Origin: Eledone cirrhosa
Taxonomy: Eukaryota
Length of the DNA stretch: 64,000 nt
Assembly (NCBI GenBank): GCA_964016885.1
Contig: OZ024740.1
Location: 277,636,001 to 277,700,000, forward strand
Direction of reading: 5' to 3'
Position 1 is the stretch's first letter, and each line of letters begins with the position of its first letter. The position numbers and the translations under genes were made by a program. This document shows positions 6,115-49,731 of the stretch, one piece after another. The notes under the pieces are model-generated. The model saw only the letters and a program-made list of their open reading frames with translations. It did no database searches and was not told the origin of the DNA.

Positions 6115-6119
<5 letters not shown>

Positions 6120-7834
6120 TGAGAACAGAACACAACCTTTCGTGCCCAGGAAACCGAAGATCAATATGAAGGACCACAAGAGGAATTTTGAGATTGACCT
6201 GCCAGTTAGATTGATCGCACCTTCAAAATCGGACCTGGGCAAATTAAGCAAAAACATTCTTGACAGGGTGATACTGCAAATTAAGAACTTGGATTATGTA
6301 TCTAACCTGAGCTTGTGGAAGGGAACTGGAGAGGTTGTTGAGTGGTTTAGGCAAATTAAATATGACAATAATAATAGGTTTATTCAACTTGATATAGCTA
6401 ACTATTATTCTTCTATTACCCCTAGTCTACTAAATAAGGCACTAAATTACGCATTCAAACATACGGACCTAACTAGCAAAGAAATGCATATTATATTATC
6501 GGCTAGGAAAACTTTGATAGAATTTGACGACAAATTATGGACCAGAGCAGATAGAGATAGCAATTTTGACATAACTATGGGATCTTCCGACTCAGCTCAA
6601 GTAACTGACCTTGTGGGCTTATTTTTAATCAATTCGCTACATAGGAAAATACCTGGTACTACCGGAGGTTTATATAGGGATGACATGCTTTTACTTATTA
6701 ATAATAATAACCCTGAACTAAATAGAAAATGTAAACAAATTACAAAATTTTTTAATTACTTTAACCTTAAAATAGAAATTGAGAACAACCATAGAATAGT
6801 CAATTTCCTAGATATAACATTAAATCTCAACACATGTCTCCACTATCCTTTTCACAAGTTGAATGAGAACTTAAACTATGTCAACTTTAACTCTAACCAC
6901 CCCAGATCTGTCAAAAACACTATAGTAAACTCAGTCCAAAAACGTATCTCTAGGATCTCGTCGAATAGAAGGATTTTTGACGAAAAGGCCCAATACTATA
7001 ATGATGCACTAGCTAGGGCAGGGTATGCTGATAAGATTGTGTACATAGATAATGATAAACAAACTAAACAAAGTAACAACTTTTTTAATTATGGCAACAA
7101 CATTAACAACTATAATAGAAAGCATTACAATAATTCCAAAGGACAAAAAAGAAATAGAACTAGGAACATATTTTGGTTTGCCCCCCCCTTTCTCACTAAA
7201 CATTAAAACCCACATCGCTAAATTATTTTTCAAAGCTCTTGATAATCGCTTCCCTAGAACACATAGGTACCACTCAATCTTCAATAGGCATACAATTAAA
7301 TTAACCTACTCATCCACCAAAAATTTAGCACAAAATATTAATAGAATAAATAATAGGAACTTAAAACCTACTGATAATAGCATAAATAATATACAAGTTA
7401 ACAAATGTAACTGTAGAGATAGATCTAAATGTCCGTTAAATAACAACTGCTTAGTCAAAAATATAGTATACAATTGTAATGTTAATACTGACTCTAATTC
7501 TTTTAACTACGTCGGTTCCACATCGACGGAATTTAAACTTCGCTATAATAACCACAAGAATTCTTTCACAGATCCAAATAAAAAATCTTCAACGACACTA
7601 TCAGGTGTACTCTGACAACTTAAGCTAGATAACGTTAGATATTCGACGGCTTGGAATATAGTCTCAAGAGGGATTCCTTTTAATTCATCCTCTGAGACAT
7701 GTGACCTCTGCGCAGAGGAGATATTCTTTATACTAAAATCTAAAAATTCCCTTAACCTACGGACAAATTTATTCAGTTGTTGCAAACATAGATTAAACTC
7801 AACGTTTAAATATAAATTTAAATTTAAAATGTAG
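6115..7834 (+). pseudogene. PLE RT-GIY-YIG polyprotein, disrupted
   Basis: Frameshift in the C-run at ~7181-7188 (WFAPPF), in-frame TGA at 7613-7615, natural end TAG at 7834. The N-terminal part of predicted ORF 5848-7206 is microsatellite. Confidence 0.88.
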
Positions 7835-7929
7835 TATATTTAGTTTGATTTATATTTATATGAGAACTAGCCGATAAATCTTTTGATTCCTAAATCTTTG
7901 ATTCCCTCTTTTTACTCTTTTTATTGTTT

Positions 7930-8600
7930 ATTTTATTTTATTTATTTTTTTTTATTTTTATTTTTATTTTTATTTTTATTTTTATTTTTATTTTTATTTT
8001 TATTTTTATTTTTATTTTTATTTTTATCTAAACATTCCTCATGAAAAATTAAGCTACCCTAAAAGCCGATGCTCCAAATTTTCTGAATTAACCTTACACT
8101 TGATAAACTTATACATTAAATATAGGAACATATGTAGACATTATTGGACATCTTAATCTTTTTTGCGATATTCCTTGCTAGATGTGATTTGATAGATAAT
8201 TTTTGGCTTTGTCTTGTAGTGAACTTGGCAATATATTGTCAATTAACCTTGAAGGGTTGTTCTTTGTGGTTTATTTTTATTTTCATTTTTATTTTTATTT
8301 TTATTTTTATTTTTATTTTTATTTTTATTTTTATTTTTATTTTTATTTTTATTCTTTTAGTATTGTAGTATTCTATAATATTTTTATATTTTTATTTTTT
8401 ATTTTATTTTATTTTTATTTTTATTTTTATTTTTAATTTTTATATGTAAATTTTTTTATATGTAAATTTTTATTTTTAATTATCTTTATTTATTTTTAAT
8501 ATTTTTATTTTTAATATTTTTAATATTTTTATATGTAAAGTTTTAATACGTAATATTTTTAATACATAGTATTTTTAATATGCAATATTTTTATTATGTA
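7930..8600. repeat. (TTTTTA)n and degenerate T-rich repeats within the PLE 3' UTR
   Basis: Directly visible. Confidence 0.85.
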
Positions 8601-9480
8601 ATATTCTTTCGTAATATTCTTTTTTAGTTTTCTATTCTATATTTTTATATTTTTATATATTTTTACTTATTATCATTATTATTGTTATCTCTGCTTATAA
8701 TATAATATATATTTTCGATTAGTATATTGAAATCTGCTCTCTATTTCTGCTTGATAGATAATCTTGTAGAGTAATCGCAAGAATAATAATATGCTCAAAT
8801 TTTTATACCACATTGAGAATGTTTTCCGGGAACTTTGAATTTGCGGAGTGAATCAGTTGGATTCACATAGACATATGAATTTTTTTTTAAAACTAAACAT
8901 AAGATAATGAATTTTCACGCATTGTGAATACTTGTTTCATTCAGAAATACTGATATTTACAATATAGTGTAAGTTTTATAAATACTAATACATTAAAACA
9001 TAGGGTTTTCTACGCCTCGAATATGTCTGGCTATTTTTTTAATTTTTCTCTCTCTATATCTCTCTATATCTCTCTATATATCTCCCTTACATTAATACTT
9101 GAGCTAAATAAATAAATAAATAAATAAATAAATGCATCATTGATACACTTACTCAAAATGACCTCCCACTACCTAATTTTTCTATATCTATATTTATATA
9201 TGTATCTATCTCTATTTCCTCTCTCTCTCTATATATATATATATCTCTTTCGGTCTCTTTACATGAAGCTCTTCGCTTTATCTATTTTTCCATCTCTCTA
9301 TTTTGTCCCATGCATTTCTTCTTTTTCTTCTTTTTCTTCCTTTTCTTCGTTTTGTCTTTCTTTCTTTCTTATTTCCCTCTTTTCTCTCTCTCTTTCTTTC
9401 TCTCTGTATTTTCACTGCTAGAGTGAACCTCTTCAAATGAAGTTGATGTTTATTACGGTATGTCGAATATATTTATCTAT

Positions 9481-9587
9481 AAAACTGTTTATATTGTATT
9501 TTGTCTTATGAAGGCATAGCATATTGTTAATATGATATCCCCGAAATATATATAATGAAATAAATATGGTTTTATAAATATAGTTTT
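9481..9587 (+). ncRNA. Type I hammerhead ribozyme in the PLE terminal repeat, core mutated (CTTATGA)
   Basis: Essentially identical to the motif at 41086-41192 except CTGATGA>CTTATGA at 9505-9511. Confidence 0.65.
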
Positions 9588-9690
9588 CCATTTATTTAAT
9601 ATTGTAAATATACTCCAAGTATTTGTCGAGTGCTTTTATATCAGTTATAAATATTTACTAGTTGTAACCCAACAATTTTAAATATAACTT

Positions 9691-9750
<60 letters not shown>

Positions 9751-9755
<5 letters not shown>

Positions 9756-9792
9756 ATACTTTGGGAGGGTCATGTTGCTAAACAAATTCAGA

Positions 9793-9797
<5 letters not shown>
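9751..9797. mobile_element. Minimal two-ended PLE terminal-repeat remnant in (TA)n
   Basis: ttgttatactttgggagggtcatgttgc matches the left end of 37738-38220 and ttgctaaacaaattcagaaac matches its right end. The two are joined at TTGC. Confidence 0.8.
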
Positions 9798-9829
<32 letters not shown>

Positions 9830-11329: not shown

Positions 11330-14300
11330 AAGCAAATTATAAACGTAAAACATGTAAGTATGTTTTTGAAACGGTGCGCGAGTTTGAAATTAGAAATTAG
11401 AAATTATAAGCTTTCACCGTATTTTAGACTAAAGAAATTTCTAGCCTGATAGTGGGGTTTATAAATTAATAAAAATAATGAATAAAAACAAAGAAACAGT
11501 TCTTTATATTAAAAAATTCCTAATTTAGCGATCGTTTCTAGGATATATATGTATGTGTTGGTATGTATATCATATAGATCTATGTAACAATTTTACAAAC
11601 TATCAGGGGGAATATACATACCTACACATATATATGCTGTCTTCAGAAATAATGATATTTGTTTATTGAAAAAAACCAACAAAGATTTAATATAATAGGT
11701 CTGTTTGGGAACAGGTTTTGAATTGACCAATAGAAAAGTAGTAAGTAGCAAGTTCATAGAATAGTAGTAGTAGAAATTTAATTTAGGGGTAGAGGAATGC
11801 AGACTTCAGTTTTGAATAGAAAGTGAATTTTGAATGAAAAGATTACTTTGGGATGAAAATAGGTCAAGCCGGTGAAAGGTACACGAAAATTTGATGTTAT
11901 TAAAGAATAATGCTAATGTTAAAATCTAAGGAGAATAAAAATTTACGATAAATGTGTTAGTGAAAAATATCAATCTTATTTAAAACATAAGGAATTTAGA
12001 TCTATAAAAAGAAATTAAATTAATTTAATTGATAGGTATATTTATAGGGATAAATTTATATTAATTCATATAGATATGATAAATAAGAGTTAGATGTTAT
12101 TAAAGAATTATGTTAAAAACGAAGGAAAAATTTTTTTTGGGGGGAGGGGGGGGGGGGCGGGGATAAATGTATTAGTGAGAAATAACAAACTTATATAGAT
12201 TACAAGGAATTTAGATTCATAACAGGAAATTAAAATAGTTTATATTTATACTTATTGGTATAAATTTTAGGAAAAGATAGCTGTAAAAGGGAAATACAAT
12301 TATGCAGTTCTTAGTAGTAGAATATTAATTATAGGTTAACTAATTTTAAAAAATTAATTATAATAATTTGTAAAATATAAGTGTATATTAATTAGGTTTA
12401 TAATATTTGAAAGTTTTTCTAATTCTATGATTGCACGAAATAATTAATTTTGTCGCTTATTTAATAGGATATCCTTAGATTTCATTATTTCAAAAATTTC
12501 CTAGGAACATAATCTACATTCATATCTATTATTTTGATAAGGGGTGGCCCTTTTGAGCACACTCCAGATCAGGTTATAGTCGATATTCTTTTTTCTATAA
12601 TTATTAATTATTTCAGCTAAGGATGTTGTATTAGCTAATGCGGCATTTTTAAAACTGTGTTTGTGGGTATTAAATCTTACTTTTAATTGGTTAGAAGTAG
12701 CTCCTATATATGAATAAGTTGAGTCCTTAGTGTTAATTTTACATTTATATACTATGTTATTAATAAGGCAATTTCCTTTTAAAGGGCAATTTGCTTTGTT
12801 TCTACAGTTACAACCTTTCGTGAATGTTATGTCAGGGGAGTTAGTCAAATTAGGTGTGGAATTTTCTCGACTTGTTGTATGTGAATGAGATGGTGGTTTG
12901 CTGTGGTTTATTTTAGTATTATGGTTAGTTTGATGTGTTGGTGGTATATTGATGGTTTTTTTTACATTGTAGGCACTTATATTTTGTTGTATATTTTTAG
13001 TTGTGGAGTAGGAGAATTTGACCGTTGATCTATTTAAAATTTGATGCTATTTATGGTTTGGCGGGAAGTTTTTCTCTAGGATAGTAAAACATTTTTTAGG
13101 TATATTATCTTTAATTTGTAGATTAAATGGAGCATTATACCAAGTAACTCGTCTATTACGGTTTCGATGTTGTTTTTTTTAATTTGTATACGATGTATCC
13201 TGATGTTTACTAAGAGAATTAGTATTAGTGATTTTATTACACATATGTTTAGTTAGATTCACTGATTTAGGTGTTTTAGCCTGATTATTAGGAATTTTGT
13301 TAGTAATGTTATTAACATATATTGGAATATTAGGATGAATGGTTTTTTGAAAGTTATTATATTGTATACTAGCAGTAAAGCCCGGCGTTGCTCGGGGTCG
13401 CTCAGTAGCTGTGTTAAAGTTACAATGTTAAGTTTCTTTTTTGGCTTAAAGTCTGTCTGCACGACTGTCTGTCTGCACGCCTAACGAAATTTACAGATAC
13501 ATATATTTTAAATAAACTTATATAATTTTTGCTTTTTTTTACGAAATATTTGCTTGTTTTACGTAGTCTTTAAATAGACTTGTTTTCAAGTAAAAATATT
13601 GTTTTAAAAGGCTTTTAAATGGAAATGAAGCAAAACGGAAGCTTAGTGTTCGAACTGATGAATTTTGCAGGTCAAAATTTTGCTGGCTCGACAACTGTTC
13701 ATGTATTGTGTTAATGTCATTTTAAACGCTGAGAAAGCCAGCGTAATTTTTTTTAATTTTTGCACGCAGAAAATGTAAACAGAACGTAAGACGCTCAATG
13801 TAAACAGAACAAAGGGAAATAACTCGTCACTTACGCTCAAAAATCGATACATTAGATTCGATTTCGTCACATAGGGTGGGTCAATTTGAAATATTTTTTT
13901 CCGATGTCTTCGCTAGGACTCAATGTACAAGTATAGCAATTTCGGTGCAATTCCGTCAGAGATTCTAAGAGGAGATGTGTGCCAAAAATCGATAGACAGA
14001 CAGACAACCACAGCTTTATATATATAGATTAGAAAAGGTGGAGAAATTAAGTTTTAAGTTGGTATTTTGGGGTATAGTGTGAGTGGCATTTAGGTGTGTA
14101 TATTTCATTTCGTGTTTGTTGGTAATATTGGGTTGTATGTATATAGTATTATTGGTACAAGGTATATATACTAATTTGTTTTTGTGGCCGCTTCTAGCTA
14201 AAGCTTCGTTATAAAAGGTCGTATTTTTATCGAATACATCGTGGTTAGATGAAAGGTTAGAAATTCTGAGTGAGATATTATATGCTAGGTTTTTAAGGAT

Positions 14301-15861
14301 ATATCTAGGGTGATTAGATTGTGAGTGTATGTAATGTAAGTTTTGGTTAGGTTTATGGTAAGGTTGGTAGATATCCGTAGATAAGTCTAAAGTTATATCA
14401 AGGAAATTAACTACTTTACTGGTGTTTTCAAATGTAATAGTGAGACTATAATAGTCTTTGAGGAAAGTTCTAAGTTTTTTATTTTTTTCAATTTCTGATA
14501 GGCTAAGGTTAGTGGAAAGAAGAAGACAGTCATCACGATATAAACCACCTTTAAGGTGGGGAAAAGAAGCATTTATGTTAAATAGAAGAAAGAGGCCCAC
14601 AAGATAGGTAATTTGGGCAGAATCACTAGAGCCCATAGTAATGTCGAATAGATTACTATATGTATTTCTGGTCCAGTATTCCTTCTGAAATTCCAGTAGT
14701 ATTTTTCTAGCGTGCGTGATAATATTAATGTCATCCATAGTTAAGTTTGATCTATTTTTGGCAAATATCAAGGCTTTGTTCAGGAGTATGGGCGATATAG
14801 AGGGATAATAAGCATCTATATCGAATTGTATAAATGAAACAGATGATTTATTTCTAATATTAGTAAACCAGTTAATTACCTGGGATGTATTTTCCCAGAG
14901 TGGTAAATTACCATGTTTTCTTAATAGTGGGATGACTCTATCTAAAAAATCTTTACTAATGATGCCAATGTCAGATTTGGAAGGACATATAAGTCTTATA
15001 GAAGGCTTAGAGTTAAAATTAGATTTGTGATCTTTCAGGTTAAAATGTGTTTTTTTCAGTGCCAAATGTTCAGTTATATCTTCAATATTGAGTTTATTTA
15101 CTATGTTGTGTGTTTTGTTGTTGATATTGGTAAGTGCCGCATTATTTGTTTTTTTATAATTTTTCCTGAGTTCTTTATAAATGAACTCATTGTAATTATC
15201 AATATCCATGTGGTACAGATTTCCAGTTTTGTCAGAGTTGACATGGATTTTGTTAGATTGTTTTTAGATCCAATAGGGTAGAATCAAGATCCTTTTGAAA
15301 ATTAGATTTATATTTCTTAAATTTGAGGTGTTTGATTAAGTTAAAAAGGTCTTTCTCGAAGTTTTCAAGTAAGGAGTTGTGTGGTGGGTTCTTATATGTA
15401 GTGAAATCATATAAATATTTCTTATCAGTACATTTAGTTTTTTTATCAAAGTGGTAGGCCCCCCATCTGACCCTTTTGATGAATTGGTTGGTTTTTTTGT
15501 ATCATAAGAAGTAAGAATTCATCCGGGTATTGGTATATTCTTTAAAGAAGCTCCCAATATTGTTTTTCCATTGTAATATGGATAATGGACAAGAAAAAGA
15601 GCTCAACTCTATATATAGGGAGTTATAAAAGTATATATATATATAAAAATATGAATACCTTTATAAAATTAGGAGCAAAGTATGTAGATAAATCTACCAA
15701 AATATACGGTAGTGTCCAATCCGTATGAAGAACTCAATGTAATCCAAATATCATGAAAAGAGATGTATTCAAAATTTTTTCGAGGAAAAACACAGGAAAA
15801 CAAAGTCAAGATAAATTAATAAAAATAATGAATAAAAACAAAGAAACAGCTCCTTATATGA

Positions 15862-19161: not shown

Positions 19162-19530
19162 TATATATTGTTCCATTTCTCTTTGACTTAAAGAATTCTA
19201 ACTCTCCTGAAGAATACGATGGCTCTTGAATTATTGGTAATACTATTCCAATAATAGTTCTTCCCCATACGAAACCATGATAGGAAGATCTATATATAAA
19301 CGTCTGACTTGTTTATACTCCCGTAGTAATTTTTCTCATTTAATTTTAATATATAATATTGCTTCTCTGAGAAATCTCTTTCATTGAGATGTAAATGTTT
19401 GGGTATTAGACTAATCAACCTTTAATTAACATATTATACGTATATATATATATATATATATATATTATCGTGCAATGGCCGTACTCGATAGCAAGGGGCA
19501 GCCATCATATATATATATATATATATATAT

Positions 19531-21012: not shown

Positions 21013-21097
21013 CAATATACAATATATTAATAAATGGAAACTATACTTATAAAGCCATATTTATAAACATGGTTTTTAAATTAAATATAACCTCTGC

Positions 21098-21136
<39 letters not shown>

Positions 21137-22572: not shown

Positions 22573-25500
22573 TTACAACACCTCGTTGTAAACGATGTTT
22601 CTTGTTTTTCCCAGGCGTGCTAATGCGAAAAGACTTTCCCTGCTGCCCACTCTAGAGCACTCAACGTACAATTGTCCGTGGGAGCAACACGGTTCTTCCA
22701 GAAGAAGTCCGGCTACAGAAAGAGTCTGGCCCTGGGACATGTTGATGGACATAGCAAAACTGACCCGAAGTGGAAATTGGAGTCTTCAGAAGGTGAACGG
22801 AATTTCTGCTCCCGAGGGAATGAGACGAATTCTCGGAATGAAAACATCATCACCTTTTCCGCATCCAGAAAGGATTGTTGCCTCGATTACATGTGCAATC
22901 AATTTTTTTACAGCCAGCCGTGTCCCGTTGTACAGTCTTGGTGGTTCCAAATTCCTCAGCAGCATTACAGGGGTGCCAACTTTAAGGAGAAGCATGTGAG
23001 GCGGTAGTCCTGGGGGCTCCAAAGAATTGAGGAACTCCGGCGGAACGTTCACCACTTCATTGGGATCTGGCATCGTGTCAACAGATTTGTAAGTGTGAAG
23101 AACACCAGGAAGGGAGTGCAGTAGTTGGTCGTTGGTTTTGTTAACAGCAGCGTTTTTTGGAGCTAGCACTGCTCTTCAACACAACCATGCGTGGTTCTGG
23201 TAATTGTCTCTCAAATCTGGAAACACTTTCTCTTTCAGCTCCCCCGCAGAATTAACTGAGGTTGAAAATGGCCACACTTCCAACTCTCCTGCAGCATCCA
23301 GAGGTATTTTGCCGTCGCCAAGTTTCAAAATGTCCTGTGCAAATTATGCGGACGTTTGGTCGCCGTGTAATTGAACTCTCATGTTGGTTGTAAGAAGCAG
23401 TGTCCTGACATGGCGCCACAGAGGAGAGGACTTTAAGCATGCTTGTACCTCATCTGCTCCTGTGCCTTTGGGAATGACGGGAAGAGTCTGCCTGAAGTCA
23501 CCTGAAAGCAGAAGCGTAACACATCCCATGGGAGCCTGGCAGCCTCAGATGTCCTTTAGAGCTCTGTTTAATGCGTCCAGAGCTCCCTTATGGGCCTAGG
23601 TTCAGTCATCCCACACAATGAGCTGACATCGTTTTAGGACTTGGCCCTGGTCGGAGGTCGTGCTGATGCTGCAAGTAGGCGTTTCTGACGTTGTTAAATT
23701 GAGAGGCAATTTAAAACTGGAGTGTGCGGTCCTGCCACCAGGCAACAACGTGGCAGCAATTCCAGAAGTGGCAACAGCAACCGCAATGTCCTTGTGCATC
23801 CTGACCTTTGCAAGGAGGAGTCTCGTTAAAAATGTTTTGCCCGTCCCCGCAGGAGCATCCAGAAAGAACATACCTCCTTTTCTGTGGCGCACATGGTCGG
23901 CAACAATGGTGTAAGCATGACGTTGGTCCGGAAGAAGTTGTGGTTCAGTTTCAAGGACGTACTTGGTAAGAGCATCGACGTCGTAGGACGTTTCTCGGAG
24001 AAGAGCTGTAGGAAGTACGTTTGACCCTGTACGGATTGTTTGGGCAGACCATATGAGGGCAAATAATTTCCGCCGAGTGCTGCAACTCTATCCTCTATGT
24101 CAACGCTAGATTGAAGACCACGTCGCTGGTACCTTCCATCTCAGGGTATTGCACTTGCGCCTGACGTTTGTAGTCATCGGATAAGTCATCTTTATACTTG
24201 AGCCATAAAGAGATAGGATTACTCAGTTCGCCAGTTTGCAGCAGTACTGCAAATAGAGATCGTAGGCGCATAGGCGATTGGGATGCAATAGCTTTGAATA
24301 AAGTGGCATCCCACTGCGCACCGTCTTCTAGCAGGCCGCGCTTGAAGCAAGCCTCCCTGTAAGTGCTGCACACAGAACCGTCGGCAGTTCTAAGGTCATG
24401 AAAGGACAGGGGTCCTCTAACCTCATGTAGCAGAAGACGGAGGTAGAAGCACTCATGCTGGTTCGGGTGCACTGTGTATACTCTCCCTAGGCAACTGTCA
24501 AACTTTATACCAGGATGTCCATCAACAGGCTGACCTACCTTTCTGCGAAACCATTGTTTTTTATTCCACGTGTAATAGGACGACACCTGAGGATACAGCA
24601 GGGTTTGAGCAAATGAATCGGCCTGACAAAGTTTGAAGAATGTAGTGAGGGTGGTTTCCCCTGGTTCCGCCACCATTTGAACAGCATTAACGTCAGTGAA
24701 GTACACCCTTTGACCGTTCTCCAGGTGGACTGCGAGCTGTTCAATTGCAGGGTGCCTTTGGTGTATAGGGAAGCCGAAAATACGCCAGAAAGCCTCGTTG
24801 CTGCTGATGTAACGGCCAACTTGGTATTGCGTGACCTCATCACGGCTGTTGTCCTGTTGAAGACCGAACATAGCAGCGTCTGAACCTTTATTCACATATT
24901 TACATATGTACTTGATTGACTTGACGGAATTACAGAACTCGACATTGATGTGAGCACCGAAGGTCTTGGAAAGAAATGGGCAGTATGGCACTATCCATCT
25001 GTTGTCGACCTCGTGCTGTCCAACTGTTGCTGTAAAACCACCGTCCCCGGGTTGGCGTCGCCTGTACAGTGGGTATCCGTCAACGCCAGTCTGGGTTTCT
25101 TGGAGGAACTTTCGGGGAAATCTTTTTCTGCAGACATTGTCGTTCAAGCAAGGTGAGCTTAAATTGAAGCCCCGCCCACATGAACCATGGACCATGTTTG
25201 TCTTCACTATGTCATAGAGGTCTTGTCTATAGACGGATCGGGGAAACTCTGCGGAGATGATGCTGTCAATTGAAGATATTTTTCTTGACAGCCAAATGAG
25301 GATGTGGGCGTGCGGTAGGCCCCTCTTCTGCCACTCTACGGTGTACATGTCGCACTTTACTGGGCCAAAGACTTGGCCTCTCTTGATGAGCTCCATGAGA
25401 TTGATAAGCTTCAGCCGAAAGACTCCGCCAGGAGGTCATGCCTGTCTTTTGCCTGTTGCTCTTGGAACAGTTCTGCCCCGATCTCCTTCCACTTTGGGTG

Positions 25501-26942
25501 GCAAGTGAATGTGATGAACAGATCGGGCCTGCTGTAATGCCGTACGTAGGTCATAGCATCCTGCGTTCTCTCGTGCATGTAGCGCGGACTTCCGGTGAAG
25601 GTGGAGTGCAGAATGCAGACTTTTCCTACGCTGCTGGGAGCTGCATCATTGTTGATGGCATCTCGGAGATGGATGTAGCTCTCGGACCGCAGTTGCCTTT
25701 GATGTGACCGTATGAAACACAGTCTCTCCGATTCCATTTTTGCGCACATATCAACGGCGAATTGCTGAAGTAGGTCTCTTGACTGGTGCAGGTGATTGAA
25801 GAAATCGTGGCGAACCATGAAGGGGTAGGAGTAGAAATCCATGCATGAAACTTGTTTTTTGACGGAGTGTTGAGTGTTTACTGGATTATGCTGGTGAATT
25901 CCGTACTGATAGCCCTCTTCACCATTTACAAAGAGAAGTGGATACTGGAGGGCATCGTAAGACCTATGTGTTTCGCTGATTCGCTGAAGAGTGCTATCTC
26001 GACACTTGAGGATTATGCTGACCCCCATGCATAAGTACAGCGATTTCATTGCATGCAGGATAATTATACCGACCCGGATGCTCCTCAGATAGCATTTTCG
26101 AAGCATCAATTACCACATTAAAATTGGCTGTGGTATCTGCTTCCAAGGCATACATGAAGCTAATGACATAGCTGTTTTTTGTGTGCGGTATGTCTTGCAG
26201 TTTCCTTATAAGCTCGACATTGGTACCGGGTTAAATGGAATTCCTCATGGCTACCTACTCGTTGACATTACCAACAAAGTACAGCTGAAGAAATTGAGGT
26301 GCTTGATAGGCGGCAGGTTGGAGGGATCCGAATCTATCGTACACCTGACCGAACCTTAAATGTGGGCATAAATCCGTCTTCCTTGAGAATGTTCGCCCCG
26401 AAAGATGTCATTTGGAAAGCACAGTTATACCTCCAGATGTAAGTCAGGATATGCCATGACTCCGCAGTACTGCCTGAATATAGGAGCTTCAACCGTTGTG
26501 GTGGATCTTCCAGGGGACGTAATTTTACTTTTCCATTTGCGCAACACAAGCCATGTCTTTCTCCGGGCCACTTTTTTGCATTGCAGAAAGAGCACGTCTG
26601 GATGGCCACTGTAATTAAAGTCGGTTGTACTCGAATGCTTTCAAGGACCATCGTGAGCTACACGGCCTTGAAATACCCTGTCCAAAGGCCCTTCGTTGAG
26701 CATTACATTGTAGTCGAATGTCTCGTTCTTGCGAGGTCTGTGTAGCTCGGACAGTAGCAGTATTCGGTTTGGCGAATGGTTCGTTGATTGTCTGTCTTAA
26801 GTGCTCTTCTGGTGGCAGTACGTTTAGCATCTTGCGACCGTCGAATAGCAGATTCCACTGACGATTCGTTTGCCCGCCCTGTTCGTGTTGTTGCTGCTTT
26901 CGCAGTTTTTCGGCCAATGGAGTATCTCTTCCTTCGAGGCAT
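22573..26942 (-). pseudogene. Helitron Rep/helicase (zinc finger, HUH Rep, PIF1-like helicase), multiply frameshifted
   Basis: Motifs in order: CSFCNAKKW..CCANGKV, PDLFITFTCHPKW, VEWQKRGLPHAHIL (HUH), KYICKYVNKG (Y2), FLDAPAGTGKT (Walker A), GDFRQTLPVI, LRNL..PRLYNGTR, and terminal TRNIVYNEVL*. Confidence 0.95.
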
Positions 26943-27602: not shown

Positions 27603-30208
27603 TCCATCAGACCATGTGAGAGAGTTTATAATCACTCACGCACACATACTCACGCATGCAAACGCACACAAACTCACACACACACACGCGCGCACGTACA
27701 TACACACGCAATAGTTATTCCACTGTCATGTATCTTTGACGCATACAACTCTCAAAAGACGGCGTCTGTCACTCCCTCTATCTCTCTCTCTCTCCCGCTA
27801 TCCCCCTCTTTTAGTCTGTCTGTTTCTTTCACTCTCACTTTCTCTCTGTAACTAGTTCACATTTCTCCCCTCTATCGAAAAATGCTGTGGCGAATGGGGA
27901 GAAGGAGGAGGAGGAGTAGAGAGCCACTTCTTCACTTCGCCTCTCCGTTTCTTTCTCTCCCCTCTCACTCCCTCATTATGTACAGACATTGGCCACTTCA
28001 CTAATTCGATCCCTAGGTCAGAATCATTTGAAATACTTTTTTGCTCAAAACACTTCCGGGGCCACACGGGTTACATGTGTAGAGTTTGATAAAAACGGTT
28101 GGGTACTTCTCGAGTTTTAGGGAAACAGACACACATACAGACATCCTCCGTTTTATATATATAGATTATCTATAATTGTGCTTCATAGAACGCAACGTCA
28201 TCAATGCTGTAAATAAATATATAAATATACACCAGGTCCGATCACAAAGGACACAAACTCCCACTATCACCGCCTCCGTCCTCCTGCCCTCCCCATCTCT
28301 CACTATTATGAGCAAATGGGAACCCACTCGCTTGCCACCCCACAGCCCCGGCGGACATAATAAAGAAGGCGTTTCCACGGAGGATGATAAGGGAGATGCG
28401 TTGTAAGAGCCATTCATTCCAGCTCAAGAGCATTGTCTGTCCGTCCGTCCGTGACGCTCAATTTACATAGAGAGAGAGGGAGCGCCAAGCGAGAGATATG
28501 TACATAGTTAGAGAAGGAAAAAGTACCACCACGTGTTTTCGATGTGACAGAAAGAGGTAGATAGTTGAAAGTTGCGACGTTCCTTCATCTATATATAAAA
28601 AGAAGGGGAAGGCCAAGCGAGAGATATGTACATAGGTAGAGAGTGAAAAGAGAACGCCGTGTGTTTTCCAGGTGGCAGAAAGAGGTAGATAGACATGAAG
28701 TGACGACTTCACGTTCATCGTCATAGATGAGAAAGAGATTTATATAGAGAGAGAAAAGGAATGTGATTTGATTAGAAAGAGAGACGGGGAGATAGAGAGA
28801 GAATGAATGTGTGTGTGAGAGAGAGAGAGACAGAAAGAGGGATAAGACGCAGCCTTCATCTAGTTACTATGTCAGCAGAAGAGCACCCACGTGTCAGGCG
28901 TGACCTGGATGCAGCCCGGCACCCTTCGAGTGTAAAAAAATAAGGGCTAAAACACTCGCTTGGGTAGGGGTTCCTCTCTGAAATCCTTCTGTTTTCTAGC
29001 TCGCCTGAGAGTATCCTGCCACTTATTCGTGACAACAAACGTTAAGACCAGTGGTCAATTCAATTTTGAAGACGGAGACAGGAAATAAGAGTAGAAACGA
29101 TCTAGGGGAATAAAAACGCGTAGTACTTACCATGAAGGCGGTGCTCGAATTGAAAAGTAAAAAGCATCCTTTTTATTCAAATATATTACAATTTGGAGTT
29201 TCTATTTTATATTCATCTAAAATATCATAGTAACATATATAGATACGTTTCAATGATATAATTTCAATATACAAATTTGTTGTGTCTACATATGATTTTT
29301 TAAGTAGTTAGATTCAATTTAATTTGATTGAAATAGTCAAATATTAGCGATCCTAGACTGATATGCAACACATACGATGAAACACGTGTCAGTTTTATGC
29401 AATAAATGTTATTTCCACTCTTGTGGAATGTGATGTTTTGAATAATAATTTTGTGAATTTCTATATAAACTCCGTAAATTGTTACACTTGGAACCACTAG
29501 TAAAACTACTACAGGATTTACCAAATGAAATAATTCGACCGCTGAGTAAAACACTGCTGTAAGCGGCTCCAGATTCTTGTTACATGACGGACACCTAATA
29601 ATGATGTAATTCTCTCTCTCTCACTCTCTCTCTCTCTCTCTCTCTCTCTGTATATATATATAATATAATTAGGATTTAGCTTCATGCATAGCTGTATACA
29701 GATATGTATTGGAATTTCGTATTTCTAAAGAAATACGGTATGTTTATAGGTAAACATACCTATTTCATCAGAAATACGAAATTTCAATATATATATAACC
29801 CTATAACCAAAGTCAACATATGTGAATTAAAACGAAATTAAACTACAATAAACAGACTAAGAAAATACAAAATTCTCAGTTATAAAAATGATTAATTTTC
29901 ACACAAAAACAACGTCAATTCAACAAGAAAATCATCATTAAATCTCTTCATATTTTATATAAAAAAATCTATAAATTACAACTAATAACTGAACCTTAAA
30001 TTTAAACCAAACAATTATTGGTTAAATGAAATTATAATAAAATTAAATAAAACAAAATCTAACCCAATATTCTTGCATTAATGTGACGAATTTCATTAGG
30101 TTTCAGTCTTCCTTTTTTACTTAGTTTTGGTCTTTGTAACTGGCAACCAAGCAATCTGTTCTATAATTATAGAACAGATATAATTATAGAACATATAATT
30201 ATAGAACA

Positions 30209-35905: not shown

Positions 35906-37703
35906 TCAACCCTCAACCTTATATAATAATGAAAGCATATAAGATGACACTATGACTGTATTCCATTAATATAGTATTTTTATATTATGTTCGAGTCAAC
36001 TGAAGCACTCTGAAAGTGTGCCAAAATTTACAATAAAGCATTATGGTACGACACAAAAGATTGTTACGTATGTTTTATTTGATATGGTTTACAAGAGACG
36101 TCAGACCTCTAACTTAATTTTGATTTCACTTTTGTTATGGCAAATGAACAAAATGTTCATTCTTCCCGGATTAAAAAATGTTGCGCTATTTTTCTATAAC
36201 TCTTTTCATTCGGAGGTCATCTTTGACGTTCATCCTTCCTTGATAAGATAAGTACCTGCCAAGTATTGAAGTTTTGGGACTAGGATAGCAATCAATAGTT
36301 TGCCAATGCAAATCGAGATCTTCGTATTAATGAAAGGAGACAATATTTCCGAATATCAATTATTTGGGCTGGTATGTTCTTTGATAGATGGATATGTCGA
36401 CATTTCTAATGCATCGTTATGATATAACCAGAACAAATGTAGTGAAGAATCCTTAAGGAAACGTTGGTATTGAAATTGCTCACCTCTTTGCATGCTTTCA
36501 AATGAGATGAAAACGTTAAGCTTAGTGAGGTAAAGTATTGTTGATTTTATCTCGGATTCGATCACCATTCAATTTAAACAGATTTATATCTCGGTTCCAA
36601 GTCGTAACATCATTAGAATATAGAACTGAACGTGTTTCATATTTTAATTTGACGCTACACTCAACACATTAAACCCTTTTTTATATTTCAGATTTTGCAT
36701 CTATCTTCCTCAGAATTGTAACAATTAATCAAAGAATTATAAATGACATGATAAACTATATGGGCGGCGTTGAAAATATATTATATAGAAATATATAGTT
36801 GGATGCAAGATTTGGAAAAGGTTTTCATTGTTTTTGAGCACCAAAATTATATGCAAGCAAGTCTGCAGGGATATTTGTTCGTAACACGAGAATTTGTTTT
36901 TTATTCTGGTGCTGGTTTCCTTTTTTGAGATAAATACTTTGGAGAGGAAACATTATCAAACTAGCACACATATATCTACATTAAACACTAGATTTCTGCG
37001 CTATTTACACTTTCTTAAATTGATTATTCTTGCGTTATCCGAATGCAATGTTGATCATGCTTTCAACTTTCTAAACCATTCACGAGAAAAAACATCCACT
37101 TTAGTGATTTGCTCAAAAGGATTTTTGTTTCAGTTGCTTTGGCTGAATAATTGCTTGGAAAAGTGACCAGTCACACCCTGATATATCATCCACCCAAGCA
37201 CGTTTCTCTATATTTATCGTGATATATTTTATATGTGATTTAATGTAAAAAGATTATGCTCAATTATATATTGCATGGCAACTTATTTTGTCATATAGTT
37301 GAATTATTTTAAAATTGTGCATCGCCCAATAATTCTGGAACAACGCTTTTCTTTTTCTCTCTTACACTTTATAATCTGATGATAACATATAGGCTTCATT
37401 AACATAATGTGCTAAGATGGGAATGAATAAGATTATATTTTAACTGTTTCTAATTTGAAAAATTTGGTAAGTGTTTAGTGGCAAAACGCAAATACAAACC
37501 AACTATGTCAGATCGATAAATACTTATTGAACACGCTAACAAAGATCATTACTTATAAAGAGGTTCAAATGTAAGAGAAAAATTCAGAGTGCGGCCGATC
37601 AATATAAGAATATTCGTTCACAGCGGAAACATAAAATGAGGTATGGGGGTATTTACAAATACACAGAGACAGGCAGACAGAAACACTCAAACTCATTCAC
37701 GCG

Positions 37704-37737
<34 letters not shown>

Positions 37738-37738
<1 letters not shown>

Positions 37739-38220
37739 TGTTATACTTTGGGAGGGTCATGTTGCCAATAAGAAACACACGGAGCAGTTGCTTTCACTCC
37801 AATTTATTATAAATTAAATTTATAAATTTATAAATACCCGGTTGGGGATTCTTTTCTTTGTTCTGTGCCTCTCCTTTATTCTGTCCTACGCCATCTTGCA
37901 CACAACACACACAAAAACAAGATGGCGTAGGACAGAACAAAGGAGAGGCACAACACAAAGAAAAGAATCCCAAGTCACTGAAGAGCTCACAGAATGTGTG
38001 ACAAAAGAACTTTGACAATATATGAACAACCGTCCGGTTGTGGAACCAACCAACCAACCGGAAATTTATAAATTTATAAATTTAATTTATAATAAATTGG
38101 AATGAAAGCAACTGGTGCGTGTGTTTCTTATTGGCAACATGACCCTCCCAAAGTATAACAATATCGATTTCAACACACGTTTTCAGATAAAGATCCTTGC
38201 TAAACAAATTCAGAAACGAA
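37738..38220. mobile_element. Head-to-head inverted PLE-type terminal-repeat insertion in (TA)n
   Basis: 37738-37898 is the reverse complement (with an internal deletion) of ~37918-38160. The right arm has a ~60-nt extra tail and the motif CTGAAGA-gtcaca..tgtgac-AAAA. Confidence 0.8.
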
Positions 38221-38234
38221 ATATATATATATAT

Positions 38235-38516
38235 GTTCACTTGTATTACTGACTTGTTTCTCATTTTTCCACTCTTTACGTTACCTCACCATTCTTGTTT
38301 GTTTACATGTCTCTCTTTCTCCACCCAATTCTTTTTATCCTAATAACTTATTTTAGTTATTGCTCGCGCTGGTCTGAGGTATCTGATCTTTAATGCGAAG
38401 ACATACTTAAGATGGCCAGAATATCACTGATGATGGATAGTCCTGGCTTCTAGCTCTATTTTTTAATTCATATGTATCACATTCGCAACAACGCAGCAGG
38501 TCATTTTATCATTCCT
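38235..38516 (+). mobile_element. Decayed terminal-repeat-like island related to 39280-39475
   Basis: Both share tgtttgtttaca...ggtct..atcaCTGATGA..attcatatgta..gcaac.acgcagca and end at (TA)n. Confidence 0.5.
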
Positions 38517-38529
38517 ATATATATATATA

Positions 38530-38745
38530 CAAATGAAAGTACAGCATATTCGAAGTTCGAGCAGCAGCTAGGCCAACGAATGCTTTCAGCAGTGCAGTCA
38601 AGCACTCGACAATGTATAAACCTCAGAGTAATAACATAGAGTTTAAAGGGCTTTGCAAATTGAAGATAGCGACCGGTAATTCAGGTGTGTGATCTGTAGC
38701 AACGAAAGAACTGACTAGTGAGAAAAAATACATACACATACATAC
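38530..38745. mobile_element. Dispersed short element in a microsatellite, with an inverted copy at 43270-43462
   Basis: Near-identical reverse complement. The 38530 copy is ~45 nt longer at the (TA)n end. Confidence 0.7.
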
Positions 38746-38761
38746 ATACATACACACACGC

Positions 38762-38857
<96 letters not shown>

Positions 38858-39470
38858 TTTCCCTGCTGTGACCCGTCTATTTCGTTCTTACTGCTTCCTC
38901 TTTCTCTGTATCTTTACCCTCTCTAGCAGTCACTCTCTCTGTTAGCCTCTTCCTCACCCTTCACTCACTCATTCTCTGTTACTACCTCTCCTCCTCCTCC
39001 TTCTTCCCGTTTGACCTGTGCGTAATTCTTTTCTTTCGCACCCTTGGTCTGGCAGGTCGCTTTTTTTCTCTCTCTCCTCTACGATTTCACAGAACTTATG
39101 TTCACCGAATTCACAGACTAGATTCCTTCTTCCTCCCGTTAGACCTGCACGGAATTCCTTCCTTGCTCACATTCCAACCAGGTTTGATGGTCTTTATTCT
39201 CTCTCGTTCACGATTTCACCGAATTTATATTCATAGAATTTTGGGACTTGACTCCTTCTTCCTCACTTTTCGTTGCTTCACCATCTTTGTTTGTTTACAC
39301 TCGTGTCCCCTTTATTTACGTGTCCCAACGACTTTTTTTAGCCGTTGCTCGAACCAACCGGAGGTATATGGTCTTTAAAGCGATGAAATACCAATGATGG
39401 TTGGAAGATCACTGATGAAGGACTAAATTTATTCATATGTAACCCATTAGCAACCACGCAGCACGTTTAT

Positions 39471-39533
<63 letters not shown>

Positions 39534-39554
39534 TATCTGTATATACAACACACA

Positions 39555-39615
<61 letters not shown>

Positions 39616-39699
39616 GTTATTCCGGGTTGATTCGGAACACAACCCGGAATAACATATATATTAAAGGAACGATCGACTTTCGTCAAATCGGACCGAAGA

Positions 39700-39882
39700 A
39701 ACAATGTTTCCGTTGGTCTTTCCAATTGCTAATACTATCTATCGGTCGCAACTCCAGGTAGAAGGAGCAACATGAAATAAAGTGTGTTGCTCAAGGACAT
39801 AACGCATCGCCTGGTCCAGGAATCGAACTCACAACCTTACGATTGCGAATCCAATTCTCTAACCACTCAACCACACGCCTTC
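39700..39882 (-). mobile_element. SINE family B
   Basis: tRNA-like head plus CORE-like segment. Confidence 0.75.
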
Positions 39883-39905
39883 ATTTTGACATATATATAT
39901 ATATA

Positions 39906-40670
39906 CGTTATTCCGGGTTAAATTAAGAACACAATAAAACTCTCCTACTCCACCACACCTAATCTATCTAGGAATATAGCCAACCACAATTCTAAAAAAT
40001 TAAATAAGCTAACCACCTCCCGACACAATCCCCGGACTGGGCCCCTGTGTAATTGCCTAAAGGAAGCCTGCCCACTTGAAAACAAATGCCTGACAAATGA
40101 TATCGTATACACATGCGATTTCATCTCAGGCACCGACGATTGCAATAACAAAAAGACTTACATCGGCATGACTTCCAATAACTTTAAGACGCGTTGGTAT
40201 GCCCATACCCACTCCTTCAGAAACCGGACAAATCAAACCAGACAACACTCGCCTCCTATGTTTGAGACGTCAAAAGGAACTCCACCCCCTTCACGCTTAA
40301 ATGGAAAATACTCCAGAAAGCGCGCTCCTATAACGGAGGACAGAAGGGCTGCGAACTTTGTATCTCAGAGAGATATGAAATTTTATTCGCCAAGGGGCCG
40401 CTACTGAACAAACTCTCTGAACACTGCCCGAACTGCATGCACAAGAACTATGCAACTTTCAAATACCTTAAGCCAGTGTTAAAGCCCGATGGCTAAAAAC
40501 GACTTCCTCCTTTTAGCCCCTCTACATCCTTCCAACTCCAACCCCACCCATCCTCAACCTGAAATACGGCCACTATGGTTATGTGAGTACCTCTTACCTA
40601 TCTGCATTTTCTGCCTGTAGAGCTGTTTTTATGTGCCTGTGTATAGGCGTATATTTATTGAGTACTTATT
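39906..40670 (+). mobile_element. 5'-truncated Naiad-like PLE, GIY-YIG end only
   Basis: TIKLSYSTTPNL...CNCLKEACPLENKCL..IVY...YIGMTSNNFKTRW..H...CELC..E...CMHK, with a frameshift and a stop. It is preceded by a 14-nt arm cgttattccgggtt also seen at 39615. Confidence 0.85.
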
Positions 40671-40679
40671 TGTATATAT

Positions 40680-40751
<72 letters not shown>

Positions 40752-40855
40752 AAGTTATATTTAAAAATTGTTGGGTTACAACTAGTAAATATTTATAACT
40801 GATATAAAAGCACTCGACAAATATTTGGAGTATATTTACAATATTAAATAAATGG

Positions 40856-40962
40856 AAAACTATATTTATAAAACCATATTTATTTCATTATATATATTTC
40901 GGGGATATCATATTAACAACATGCTATGCCTTCATCAGACAAAATACAATATAAACAGTTTT
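40856..40962 (-). ncRNA. Type I hammerhead ribozyme candidate
   Basis: Reverse complement of 41086-41192 with intact CTGATGA and GAAA. Confidence 0.7.
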
Positions 40963-41085
40963 ATAGATAAATATATTCGACATACCGTAATAAACATCGA
41001 CTTCATTTGAAGAGGTTTACGCTAGCAGTAAACCTCTTCAAATGAAGTCGATGTTTATTACGGTATGTCGAATATATTTATCTAT

Positions 41086-41192
41086 AAAACTGTTTATATT
41101 GTATTTTGTCTGATGAAGGCATAGCATATTGTTAATATGATATCCCCGAAATATATATAATGAAATAAATATGGTTTTATAAATATAGTTTT
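41086..41192 (+). ncRNA. Type I hammerhead ribozyme candidate
   Basis: Stem I TATTTTGT/ATGAAATA with extensions, CTGATGA at 41110-41116, imperfect stem II (catatt/aatatg), GAAA at 41148-41151, palindromic stem III ATATATAT and AUA cleavage triplet. Confidence 0.7.
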
Positions 41193-41205
41193 CCATTTAT
41201 TTAAT

Positions 41206-41277
<72 letters not shown>

Positions 41278-41278
<1 letters not shown>

Positions 41279-41600
41279 TGTTATACTTTGGGAGAGTCAT
41301 GTTGCCAATAAGAAACACACGCACCAGTTGCTGTCACTTCAATTTATTATAATAAATTTATAAATTTAGGAATTTATAAATTTCCGGTTGGTTGGTTGGT
41401 TCCACAACCAGATGGTTGTTTATATATTGTCAAAGTTCTTTCGTTACACATTCTGTGACCTCTTCAGCGACTGGGGATTCTTTTCTTTGTTTTTTGTGCC
41501 TCTCCTTTGTTCTGTCCTACGCCATCTTGTTTTTGTGTGTGTGTTGTGTGCTTAGTTTGCGCAAACTAAGCACACAACTAAGCACACAAACTAAGCACAC

Positions 41601-41603
<3 letters not shown>
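41278..41603 (-). mobile_element. Terminal repeat of the 37738 family with a hammerhead candidate at 41429-41471
   Basis: Minus strand reads gtcg CTGAAGA ggtcacagaatgtgtaac GAAA gaacTT tgac. It starts at the same ttgttatacttt end as 37738 and 9751. Confidence 0.7.
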
Positions 41604-41654
<51 letters not shown>

Positions 41655-41740
41655 TATATATGTGTGTATGTATGTGTATGTATGTGTATGTTTATGTATA
41701 TATATATATACGTGTATGTGTGTATGTATGTATATGTGTG

Positions 41741-42763: not shown

Positions 42764-42862
<99 letters not shown>

Positions 42863-42873
42863 TATCTGTATAT

Positions 42874-42921
<48 letters not shown>

Positions 42922-42993
42922 GCTTTATATAAATATATATATATCAGTGATTAAATGATTGAAAGTTTAAACACTCTTTGACTGTTATTTACA

Positions 42994-43066
<73 letters not shown>

Positions 43067-43264: not shown

Positions 43265-43587
43265 ACAACGTGTGTGTGTGTGTATGTATGTATGTGTATG
43301 TATTTTTTTCTCACTAGTCTGTTCTTTCGTTGCTACAGATCACGCACCTGAATTACCGGTCGCTATCTTCAATTTGCAAAGCCCTTTAAACTCTAGGTTA
43401 TTACTCTGAGGTCTATACATTGTCGAGTGCTTGGCTGCGCTGCTTAAAGCATTCGTTGGCCTATATATATATATATATATAGTAATAATAATAAATTTGA
43501 AGACTAAAATCCAAAGGGGGCTCGATAAGGATAAATATATATCAAATATAATAAGAACCGTAGAGCAAATATTTATTTAATCTGTTA

Positions 43588-43700
<113 letters not shown>

Positions 43701-45212: not shown

Positions 45213-45613
45213 AGAAGAAGTTTACGAAATGGAAAACAGTGTTTAGTACTATTATTATAGAAAGCCATATCTTGTGTATAAACATATAAGACAGAAATTT
45301 GCAAACGGTGGTGTAAAAAGGTAACATTATATGCATTTAAAAAAAGAAAAAGTCGTTTTCAAACGATGGTTACAGTATAGAGAACGTTCAATTTTGCTGT
45401 TTAAAAGTTTGTTTACCGACGACGTTAAAATACAGTATATCTCTAAATTGCATAACTTGCAGAATCGATGATTTTATATATATATATATATATATATATA
45501 AGTTGAAAAAAATGAAAACGAAATTTCATTTCTCACTCTTAGTATGGCACTTACTTAAATGTAAGTATGTATGTATACGTACATACATATATGTATACAG
45601 ACGTACAGTAGCA

Positions 45614-45693
<80 letters not shown>

Positions 45694-45866
45694 TATACAC
45701 ATATGCATACAGGTACACATACATATATGCACGCATCAGTTTAGCCGGAGTTTATTATAACGCCGGCCGCTTTGTTCGTTTGTTTGTCAACAAAGCGAAC
45801 AGCCTGAATTTATGCCATACGGTGTTAAGGCAACCACGTCACCTTTTTGTTCAACACTGACACAGG

Positions 45867-45911
45867 AACGATGTACTAGTTTCAAGCTTGTTAGCTATCA
45901 TCAGCACCGTT
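45867..45911 (-). ncRNA. Type I hammerhead ribozyme (unit 1)
   Basis: Minus strand reads aacggtg CTGATGA tagctaacaagctt GAAA ctag TA catcgtt. Confidence 0.85.
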
Positions 45912-46146
45912 TACCCATCTGCCAGATAGTTGAACGTTCGAAAGTATATACTTTCCTTATGAAAATTAACGGCTGAGCAGCCTAATTTGCATATTGAGTG
46001 AGTTAAATCGGTCAGGCATACCGAAAACGATAAGTTGAAAAAAAATGAAAACGAAATTTCATTTCTCACTCTTAGTATGGCACTTACTTAAATGTAAGTA
46101 TGTATGTATACGTACATACATATATGTATACAGACGTACAGTAGCA

Positions 46147-46212
<66 letters not shown>

Positions 46213-46385
46213 TATACACATATGCATACAGGTACACATACATATATGCACGCATCAGTTTAGCCGGAGTTTATTATAACGCCGGCCGCTTTGTTCGTTT
46301 GTTTGTCAACAAAGCGAACAGCCTGAATTTATGCCATACGGTGTTAAGGCAACCACGTCACCTTTTTGTTCAACACTGACACAGG

Positions 46386-46430
46386 AACGATGTACTAGTT
46401 TCAAGCTTGTTAGCTATCATCAGCACCGTT
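46386..46430 (-). ncRNA. Type I hammerhead ribozyme (unit 2)
   Basis: Same motif as unit 1. Confidence 0.85.
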
Positions 46431-46664
46431 TACCCATCTGCCAGATAGTTGAACGTTCGAAAGTATATACTTTCCTTATGAAAATTAACGGCTGAGCAGC
46501 CTAATTTGCATATTGAGTGAGTTAAATCGGTCAGGCATACCGAAAACGATAAGTTGAAAAAAATGAAAACGAAATTTCATTTCTCACTCTTAGTATGGCA
46601 CTTACTTAAATGTAAGTATGTATGTATACGTACATACATATGTGTATACAGACGTACAGTAGCA

Positions 46665-49367: not shown

Positions 49368-49731
<364 letters not shown>

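What the first reader, a model, noticed from the sequence alone, without database searches (positions are those of the whole stretch)
9751..9797. A 47-bp insertion made only of the two ends of a terminal repeat, joined at a TTGC microhomology
Seen: this island in (TA)n consists of the first 28 nt of the inverted arm of 37738-38220 plus the last ~21 nt of its tail, overlapping at TTGC. The same left end recurs at 37738 and 41278. Similar minimal end-pair islands appear for other families at 21017-21098, 43481-43594 and 49409-49511. Inference: both target strands prime cDNA at two fixed RNA positions and the two cDNAs join by microhomology (twin-priming-like). Many tiny unique islands in the (TA)n tracts would then be PLE scars.
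Basis: partly seen in the sequence, partly recalled or inferred. Interest (0 to 1): 0.7.

Follow-up and report, generated by a model that had tools for sequence, protein, structure and literature searches.

The report
Minimal Penelope retrotransposon scar in microsatellite
A 47-base insert in a TA repeat of an octopus genome consists of the two ends of a Penelope-like retrotransposon joined back to back; the element type is known, but such tiny copies could help settle how these elements make their inverted structures.

Summary
Observation confirmed. 9751-9797 is 28/28 nt identical to the inverted end at 37738 (1 mismatch to 41278) plus 21/21 nt identical to the tail end 38197-38217, overlapping at TTGC. 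The family carries a PLE-type minimal hammerhead motif. It sits in a (TA)n-rich octopus window with degenerate Hydra-clade PLE ORFs. Inverted truncated copy, tail, two RT start sites and TA targeting are all published for PLEs.

The informative point is that the two pieces do not overlap on the RNA, so one folded-back cDNA cannot make the island. It needs two primed cDNAs or a deletion from a longer palindrome.

For dual priming: 9 of 9 ends share 2-4 nt with the TA target. Against a simple version: arm lengths are coupled (rho 0.93, n=9; 0.58 with the awkward cases, n=11), 4 of 6 long palindromes carry one-arm indels, and junction microhomology without this island is borderline (p about 0.05-0.09).

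Of the three other islands, 43482 is confirmed, 49409 is likely and 21013 is only half supported. PLE origin about 0.93; dual priming about 0.55; deletion about 0.35.

The parts
9751..9778 (-). Inverted arm: 28 nt ending at the inner fixed end (X) of family A
   Evidence: 28/28 to 37738-37765 and to rc 38134-38161; 27/28 to 41278
9775..9797 (+). Tail-end piece: last about 21-23 nt of the family A tail, ending at the outer end (Y)
   Evidence: 21/21 to 38197-38217; last 2 nt differ
9775..9778 (.). 4-nt junction microhomology TTGC
   Evidence: P about 0.02-0.025
9697..9750 (.). Left (TA)n target tract, shared with the 3' end of the family C element
9798..9823 (.). Right (TA)n target tract
37738..38220 (+). 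Family A reference copy: inverted arm 37738-37898 (lacks 83-85 nt incl. the hammerhead), direct arm 37898-38161, 59-nt tail 38162-38220; 17-nt offset at centre; arms differ at 8 of 160 sites
37974..38019 (+). Minimal type-I hammerhead motif of family A (core starts 37978; this copy has lesions at G10.1 and G12)
   Evidence: layout compared with tables
41278..41603 (-). Third family A copy: 283-nt arm from end X with hammerhead core at 41467, perfect palindrome centre near 41560, short repeated right arm, no tail
6115..9696 (+). Neighbouring degenerate RT + GIY-YIG PLE (Hydra-type CxCX5C linker) whose 3' terminus is family C; context, not family A
40749..41209 (+). Family C palindromic copy: 92-nt tail, 8-nt offset, 2-nt junction overlap
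43482..43592 (-). Family D two-ended island: whole tail plus 17-nt inverted end, 2-nt overlap
49409..49510 (+). Family B short two-ended island; tail piece stops about 16 nt short of end X (non-overlapping class, diverged subfamily)
21013..21105 (.). Family C-like island: left 50 nt is the inverted X end; right half unresolved

Best explanation
The island is a dead, minimal insertion of a (TA)n-targeting, hammerhead-bearing Penelope-like element (family A). Steps: (1) the GIY-YIG endonuclease cuts both strands of a (TA)n tract [shown in vitro for another PLE on AT-rich DNA; inferred here]. (2) Each target 3' end primes reverse transcription at one of two fixed internal RNA sites about 59 nt apart, X and Y [two sites shown for the anole element; fixed ends shown here], helped by 2-4 nt of pairing with a UA/UAU in the RNA [end overlap shown here, pairing inferred]. 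(3) Both cDNAs stopped or were trimmed early, at about 28 and 21 nt [inferred]. (4) They were joined through TTGC and filled in [overlap shown, repair route inferred]. The two syntheses are probably coupled (same RNA or RT dimer, shared stop or RNA 5' end), which would give the near-symmetric palindromes when both run on. The island has no ribozyme or ORF and is most likely inert.
For: The pieces do not overlap on the RNA (X arm reaches 28 nt upstream of X; the Y piece starts 35 nt downstream of X), so one cDNA cannot template both. End X is at the same base in 3 of 3 family A copies. Outer ends coincide in families B (3 copies), C (2) and D (2). 9 of 9 ends whose continuation is known share 2-4 nt with the TA tract, including the one Y end that can be read (null 0 of 300,000 for all nine at 2 or more; summed overlap p = 0.011). 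5 of 5 scorable inversion junctions overlap (4, 1, 2, 2, 2; p = 0.007-0.017). In family B the X arm starts at nearly the same base in 2 of 2 two-ended copies while the Y arm differs. One-ended short copies exist (19531, 62789). Old palindromes persist (arms 5% apart at 37738). PMC11167929: both strands cut and extended, two start sites bounding the tail, predicted dimer.
Against: Arm ends are strongly coupled (rho 0.93, n = 9; 0.89 without the two largest; 0.58 with raw F, 39906 and 21013 added, n = 11), which independent cDNAs would not give and fold-back or central deletion would. 4 of 6 long palindromes have one-arm indels of 8 nt or more. Microhomology without the focal junction is borderline (p = 0.054-0.093). 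The 41278 copy has a spacer-free centre and no tail, which looks like fold-back. PMC11167929 describes the start site as not homologous to the target. No RT ORF is linked to family A in the window. No empty site or second genome was available.
Confidence: 0.55

Rival explanations
1. A 37738-like palindromic insertion (made by fold-back or any other route) later lost about 435 nt by microhomology-mediated deletion between the two TTGC copies, during repair of the integration intermediate or after cruciform breakage or replication slippage. The ends are inherited from the precursor.
For: One breakpoint lies 28 nt inside the arm and the other 36 nt outside it, a geometry I recall as typical of hairpin-stimulated deletion (recalled; one search found nothing). 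The precursor hairpin is very stable (-180 kcal/mol as DNA). The same family shows an 83-85-nt one-arm loss with 1-3 nt overlap. Arm coupling fits central deletion. PMC3846280 reports many Penelope copies disabled by microhomology-mediated deletions.
Against: Both breakpoints must land within 30 nt of the tracts. Several palindromes with 0-17 nt offsets have survived to 2.5-5% arm divergence. The island shows no extra decay (0 of 45 differences to 37738, but P = 0.10, so weak). The shared X-arm start in two B copies with different Y arms is more simply explained by a fixed synthesis stop.
Confidence: 0.35
2. Self-priming (fold-back) of a single cDNA, the model of PMC3846280, produced the island directly.
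For: It explains the palindromic copies with offsets of 0-24 nt (41278, 49828, 40749, 37738, 10922). It is published as the best reading of palindromic junctions.
Against: The tail piece does not contain the template for the 28-nt arm; 35 nt of tail are skipped. It works only with an added deletion, which is the rival above.
Confidence: 0.04
3. The 47-mer is itself a mobile non-autonomous mini-element copied from a master, or an assembly artefact of a collapsed hairpin.
For: It is flanked by TA like a MITE, and long palindromes are hard to assemble (PMC8557442).
Against: There is a single copy in the window. It has no terminal inverted repeat, ribozyme or stable fold (-1.8 kcal/mol). The junction is clean and similar islands occur in other families.
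Confidence: 0.06

Closest known systems
Hydra-clade PLEs, incl. Hydra-1_Obim (PMC8557442)
   Same: (TA)n target, canonical hammerhead (CTGAAGAG core also in Hydra-1_oBim), presence in Octopus. Neighbouring ORFs in this window have the DKT and CxCX5C motifs.
   Different: Family A's end motifs were not found in that paper's supplement text (0 hits for 4 terms; cells over 400 characters are cut there). No ORF is tied to family A here, so its clade is unproven.
Canonical PLE insertion: inverted 5'-truncated pLTR plus tail (PMC8557442, PMC3846280)
   Same: Head-to-head inverted copy, tail on one side only, palindromic junctions.
   Different: Tails here are 41-100 nt (59 in family A) against the quoted 30-40. 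The island keeps only the two extreme ends and is not palindromic.
PAc (Poseidon of Anolis) in vitro mechanism (PMC11167929)
   Same: Two fixed RT start sites bound the tail; both target strands are cut and extended; AT-rich target.
   Different: The paper leaves completion of the insertion unexplained, proposes no joining of two cDNAs in the parts I read, and calls the start site non-homologous to the target. Ends here share 2-4 nt with the TA tract.
L1 twin priming (as summarised in PMC9148063; original not read)
   Same: Two target overhangs prime on the RNA and give an inverted segment; junction microhomology (recalled for L1).
   Different: No poly(A) priming. Both sites are internal and fixed. 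The two cDNAs usually overlap on the template, giving palindromes.

Membership tests
Penelope-like element (EN+ PLE) | Inverted 5'-truncated copy head-to-head with the direct copy | tested here: met
   37738-37898 against 37915-38161
Penelope-like element (EN+ PLE) | Tail extension on one arm only | tested here: met
   59 nt, 38162-38220; longer than the quoted 30-40 bp
Penelope-like element (EN+ PLE) | Minimal type-I hammerhead in the terminal repeat (short helix I, extra base before helix II, 1-2 bp helix III) | tested here: met
   Cores at 37978(+) and 41467(-), read by eye; each copy has lesions; Rfam gave no hammerhead hit
Penelope-like element (EN+ PLE) | RT plus GIY-YIG ORF joined to this terminal repeat | not testable with these tools
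   No family A copy in the window continues into an ORF; family C with the same layout does
Penelope-like element (EN+ PLE) | Target-site duplication | tested here: inconclusive
   Hidden in (TA)n on both sides
Hydra clade | (TA)n insertion preference | tested here: met
   3 of 3 family A copies flanked by TA on both sides
Hydra clade | DKT and CxCX5C motifs in the ORF | tested here: inconclusive
   Met for neighbours (CxCX5C in the 7049 and 12501 frames, DKT in the 14016 frame); cannot be tested for family A
L1 twin priming | One overhang primes on poly(A), the other at a variable internal site | tested here: not met
   No poly(A); X fixed in 3 of 3 copies. Works like it, is not a member
L1 twin priming | Inverted segment joined at microhomology | tested here: met
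   TTGC; 5 of 5 scorable junctions overlap
MITE / TIR element | Terminal inverted repeats and multiple identical copies | tested here: not met
   Ends are unrelated sequences; one copy in the window

The most novel reading that the evidence does not exclude
TA-targeting PLEs integrate routinely by coupled dual priming. One RNP primes both target strands at two fixed RNA sites through 2-4-nt UA(U) pairing, and the two cDNAs are joined by microhomology. One mechanism then gives the tail, the inverted pLTR, the palindromes and the tiny end pairs, and a sizeable share of the short 'unique' islands in octopus (TA)n tracts are such scars. My searches for Penelope with twin priming returned no PLE paper; older subscription papers were not searchable.
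Probability: 0.4. Interest if true: 0.62.

Novelty: new variant of a known kind. Interest (0 to 1): 0.38.

Why it matters
How PLEs make their inverted repeats and tails is stated as open in PMC8557442 and left unfinished in PMC11167929. Palindromic copies cannot separate fold-back from two-strand priming, but non-overlapping end pairs like this one can, provided deletion is ruled out. A genome with this density of TA-targeted copies offers many such junctions. The 2-4-nt end overlap with the target is a direct, testable refinement of the in vitro result. The island itself has no likely function.

Tried and rejected
Rfam at gathering threshold: 0 hits in the window. At E up to 5 in 37600-41700: 65 hits, all below their gathering scores, mostly miRNA-type hairpins from palindromes, no hammerhead. 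Pfam recognised 2 of 6 ORFs (GIY-YIG at 39922, RVT_1 at 8) and not the Hydra-like RTs; these were placed by motifs and 11 homologues, one from Octopus sinensis. The fold of X plus tail is not better than shuffles (z = -0.83), so an RNA structure at the start site is not shown. Junction overlap could not be scored for 10922 (17 nt unassigned), 49828, 56684, 39615, 39906, 49409 or 41278 (no independent reference or seed failure); these 7 were left out of the count. Searches had index or parsing errors in the end-overlap test, corrected. Islands 19466 and 42945 were not assigned to any family. The palindrome at 29702-29794 was set aside as unclear in polarity. Figure supplements of PMC11167929 gave almost no text, and I read 1 of 59 parts of the PMC8557442 supplement.

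Full report
Observation. The 47 nt at 9751-9797 lie between (TA)n tracts of 54 and 25 nt. The first 28 nt are identical to 37738-37765 and to the reverse complement of 38134-38161, and differ at one base from 41278-41305. Bases 9775-9795 are identical to 38197-38217. The two matches overlap by exactly four bases, TTGC. The last two bases differ slightly from the source end. The matches are far beyond chance. The overlap alone has P = 0.020-0.025, which is modest for a junction chosen because it shows one.

Setting. The best hits of a Helitron ORF in the window are from Octopus bimaculoides (72%) and O. sinensis (66%), so the host is an octopus (inference). The window has 85 TA tracts. It holds degenerate RT and GIY-YIG ORFs at 6118-7830(+), 12501-15263(-) and 39922-40407(+). 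The first two carry the CxCX5C linker, and the second also DKT. These motifs define the (TA)n-targeting Hydra clade, which includes an O. bimaculoides family (PMC8557442, section 11 and supplement part 2).

What family A is. The copy at 37738-38220 is an inverted arm, a direct arm ending at 38161 (end X) and a 59-nt tail ending at 38220 (end Y). The direct arm has a minimal type-I hammerhead motif, core at 37978, also at 41467(-). It has a 4-bp helix I, an extra base before helix II and a 2-bp helix III, as described for PLE ribozymes (read by eye against PMC4209133 passages, and the table). Each copy has lesions and Rfam did not call it. Family C, with the same layout (40749-41209), is the 3' end of the Hydra-like ORF element at 6115-9696. 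No family A copy reaches an ORF, so PLE membership rests on architecture, ribozyme and target. I put it at about 0.93 and leave the clade open.

Other islands. 43482-43592 is a whole 96-nt tail plus a 17-nt inverted end with a 2-nt overlap. 49409-49510 joins 61 nt of the family B outer end (85% identity) to a diverged X arm (0 of 500 shuffles). 21013-21105 has a real inverted X end, but its right half does not match the tail end beyond chance (1151 of 5000 shuffles) and may be a decayed short palindrome. One search lists 43 islands of 30-500 bp. By my classification 23 belong to PLE-type termini (7 of them to one tandem array; families B, D, E, J by architecture only), 8 are simple repeats, 3 are SINE-like and 9 are unassigned. 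Of 8 stand-alone non-simple islands of 30-120 bp, 5 map to such ends, 1 is SINE-like and 2 are unassigned.

Mechanism, evidence for two primings. On the RNA the two pieces do not overlap: the Y piece starts 35 nt downstream of X. A single cDNA folding back, the model favoured in PMC3846280 (passages; parts 1-3 of 5 read), therefore cannot make the island. Frangieh et al. (PMC11167929, parts 1-2 of 4 read) showed for the anole element that both target strands are cut and extended, and that two internal start sites bound the tail. In this window X is at the same base in 3 of 3 family A copies. At 9 of 9 ends where the element's continuation is known, the element shares 2-4 nt with the TA tract, including the one readable Y end (0 of 300,000 null draws; summed overlap p = 0.011). 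Five of 5 scorable inversion junctions overlap by 4, 1, 2, 2 and 2 nt; p = 0.007-0.017 with the focal junction and 0.054-0.093 without it. Seven junctions could not be scored. Two family B copies start their X arm at nearly the same base although their Y arms differ.

Mechanism, evidence against the simple version. If two cDNAs were truncated independently, their stop points would be unrelated. They are not: rho = 0.93 over 9 two-ended insertions (permutation p below 0.001), 0.89 without the two largest, and 0.58 (p = 0.035) when 39906, 21013 and the unreduced tandem array are included with hand-entered values. The copies at 41278 and 39615 were left out because they lack a Y end. Families are pooled and palindromes are easier to find, so this is indicative only. 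Coupling fits two RTs on one RNA or a common stop at the RNA 5' end: centres lie 63-111 nt upstream of the hammerhead core in families A, C and G, just upstream of a YY1-like motif in family A (label recalled). It fits fold-back or central deletion equally well. One-arm indels of 8 nt or more occur in 4 of 6 long palindromes (37738, 56684, 49828, 63343; none in 40749 and only a TA-tract length difference in the array). PMC3846280 reports frequent microhomology-mediated deletions in Penelope copies. A 435-nt deletion from a 37738-like copy would give this island. The window cannot separate the two routes: I give 0.55 to coupled dual priming and 0.35 to deletion.

Known and new. The inverted truncated copy, tail, TA targeting, two start sites and ribozyme are published. 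Ten searches of the open library turned up no PLE paper that describes minimal end pairs or twin priming. The twin-priming definition is taken from a review passage (PMC9148063); the original and the older PLE reviews were not read and may cover this. Passages of an O. vulgaris repeat annotation (PMC13282606) list 31 recently active PLE families and had no hit for 'palindrom'. Passages of a retrozyme preprint had none for 'microhomology' or 'twin'.

Verdict. A real feature and a new variant of a known kind: an inert minimal PLE insertion whose value lies in being the class of copy that can discriminate between integration models. Interest 0.38.

Noticed in passing
window 45501-48414: About 4.5 tandem units of roughly 520-540 bp, 99-100% alike, each with a hammerhead core and an internal (TA)n tract, plus one inverted unit; no ORF. 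Looks like a young non-autonomous retrozyme-like PLE derivative and shows both X and Y as internal RNA sites.
   Followed up: partly
window 9625, 38601, 40809, 43422, 49779: The 10-mer GTCGAGTGCT recurs exactly near the ends of three otherwise dissimilar families (C, G, J); 8 matches at up to 1 mismatch against 1.2 expected. Candidate RT or EN recognition motif.
   Followed up: partly
window 41561-41603: After a spacer-free palindrome centre the right arm is about three copies of a 12-13-nt unit and then joins TA with no tail. This could be slippage or repeat addition after fold-back, or native family sequence.
   Followed up: no
window 37843-37845: The inverted arm of the 37738 copy lacks 83-85 nt that include the whole hammerhead, with 1-3 nt of overlap depending on the reference.
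   Followed up: yes
window 39615-39654 and 39906-40672: A 40-bp palindrome with both ends at the same site, and a 14-nt copy of that end in front of a GIY-YIG ORF fragment.
   Followed up: partly
window 56684-59174: 2.5-kb palindromic element with a GIY-YIG fragment and a Neptune- or Naiad-like cysteine linker; several one-arm indels; next to a Tc1/mariner-like element at 59236-60136 (mariner label by inspection).
   Followed up: partly
window 19466-19506 and 42945-42996: 41- and 52-bp unique islands in (TA)n that could not be assigned to any family in the window; candidate end pairs of families not represented here.
   Followed up: partly
window 39529-39557 and 42858-42878: The same 21-nt sequence between TA tracts at two sites, each following an island with a hammerhead-like core.
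   Followed up: no
window 23602-26109: Degenerate Helitron helicase ORFs, best hits in Octopus.
   Followed up: partly
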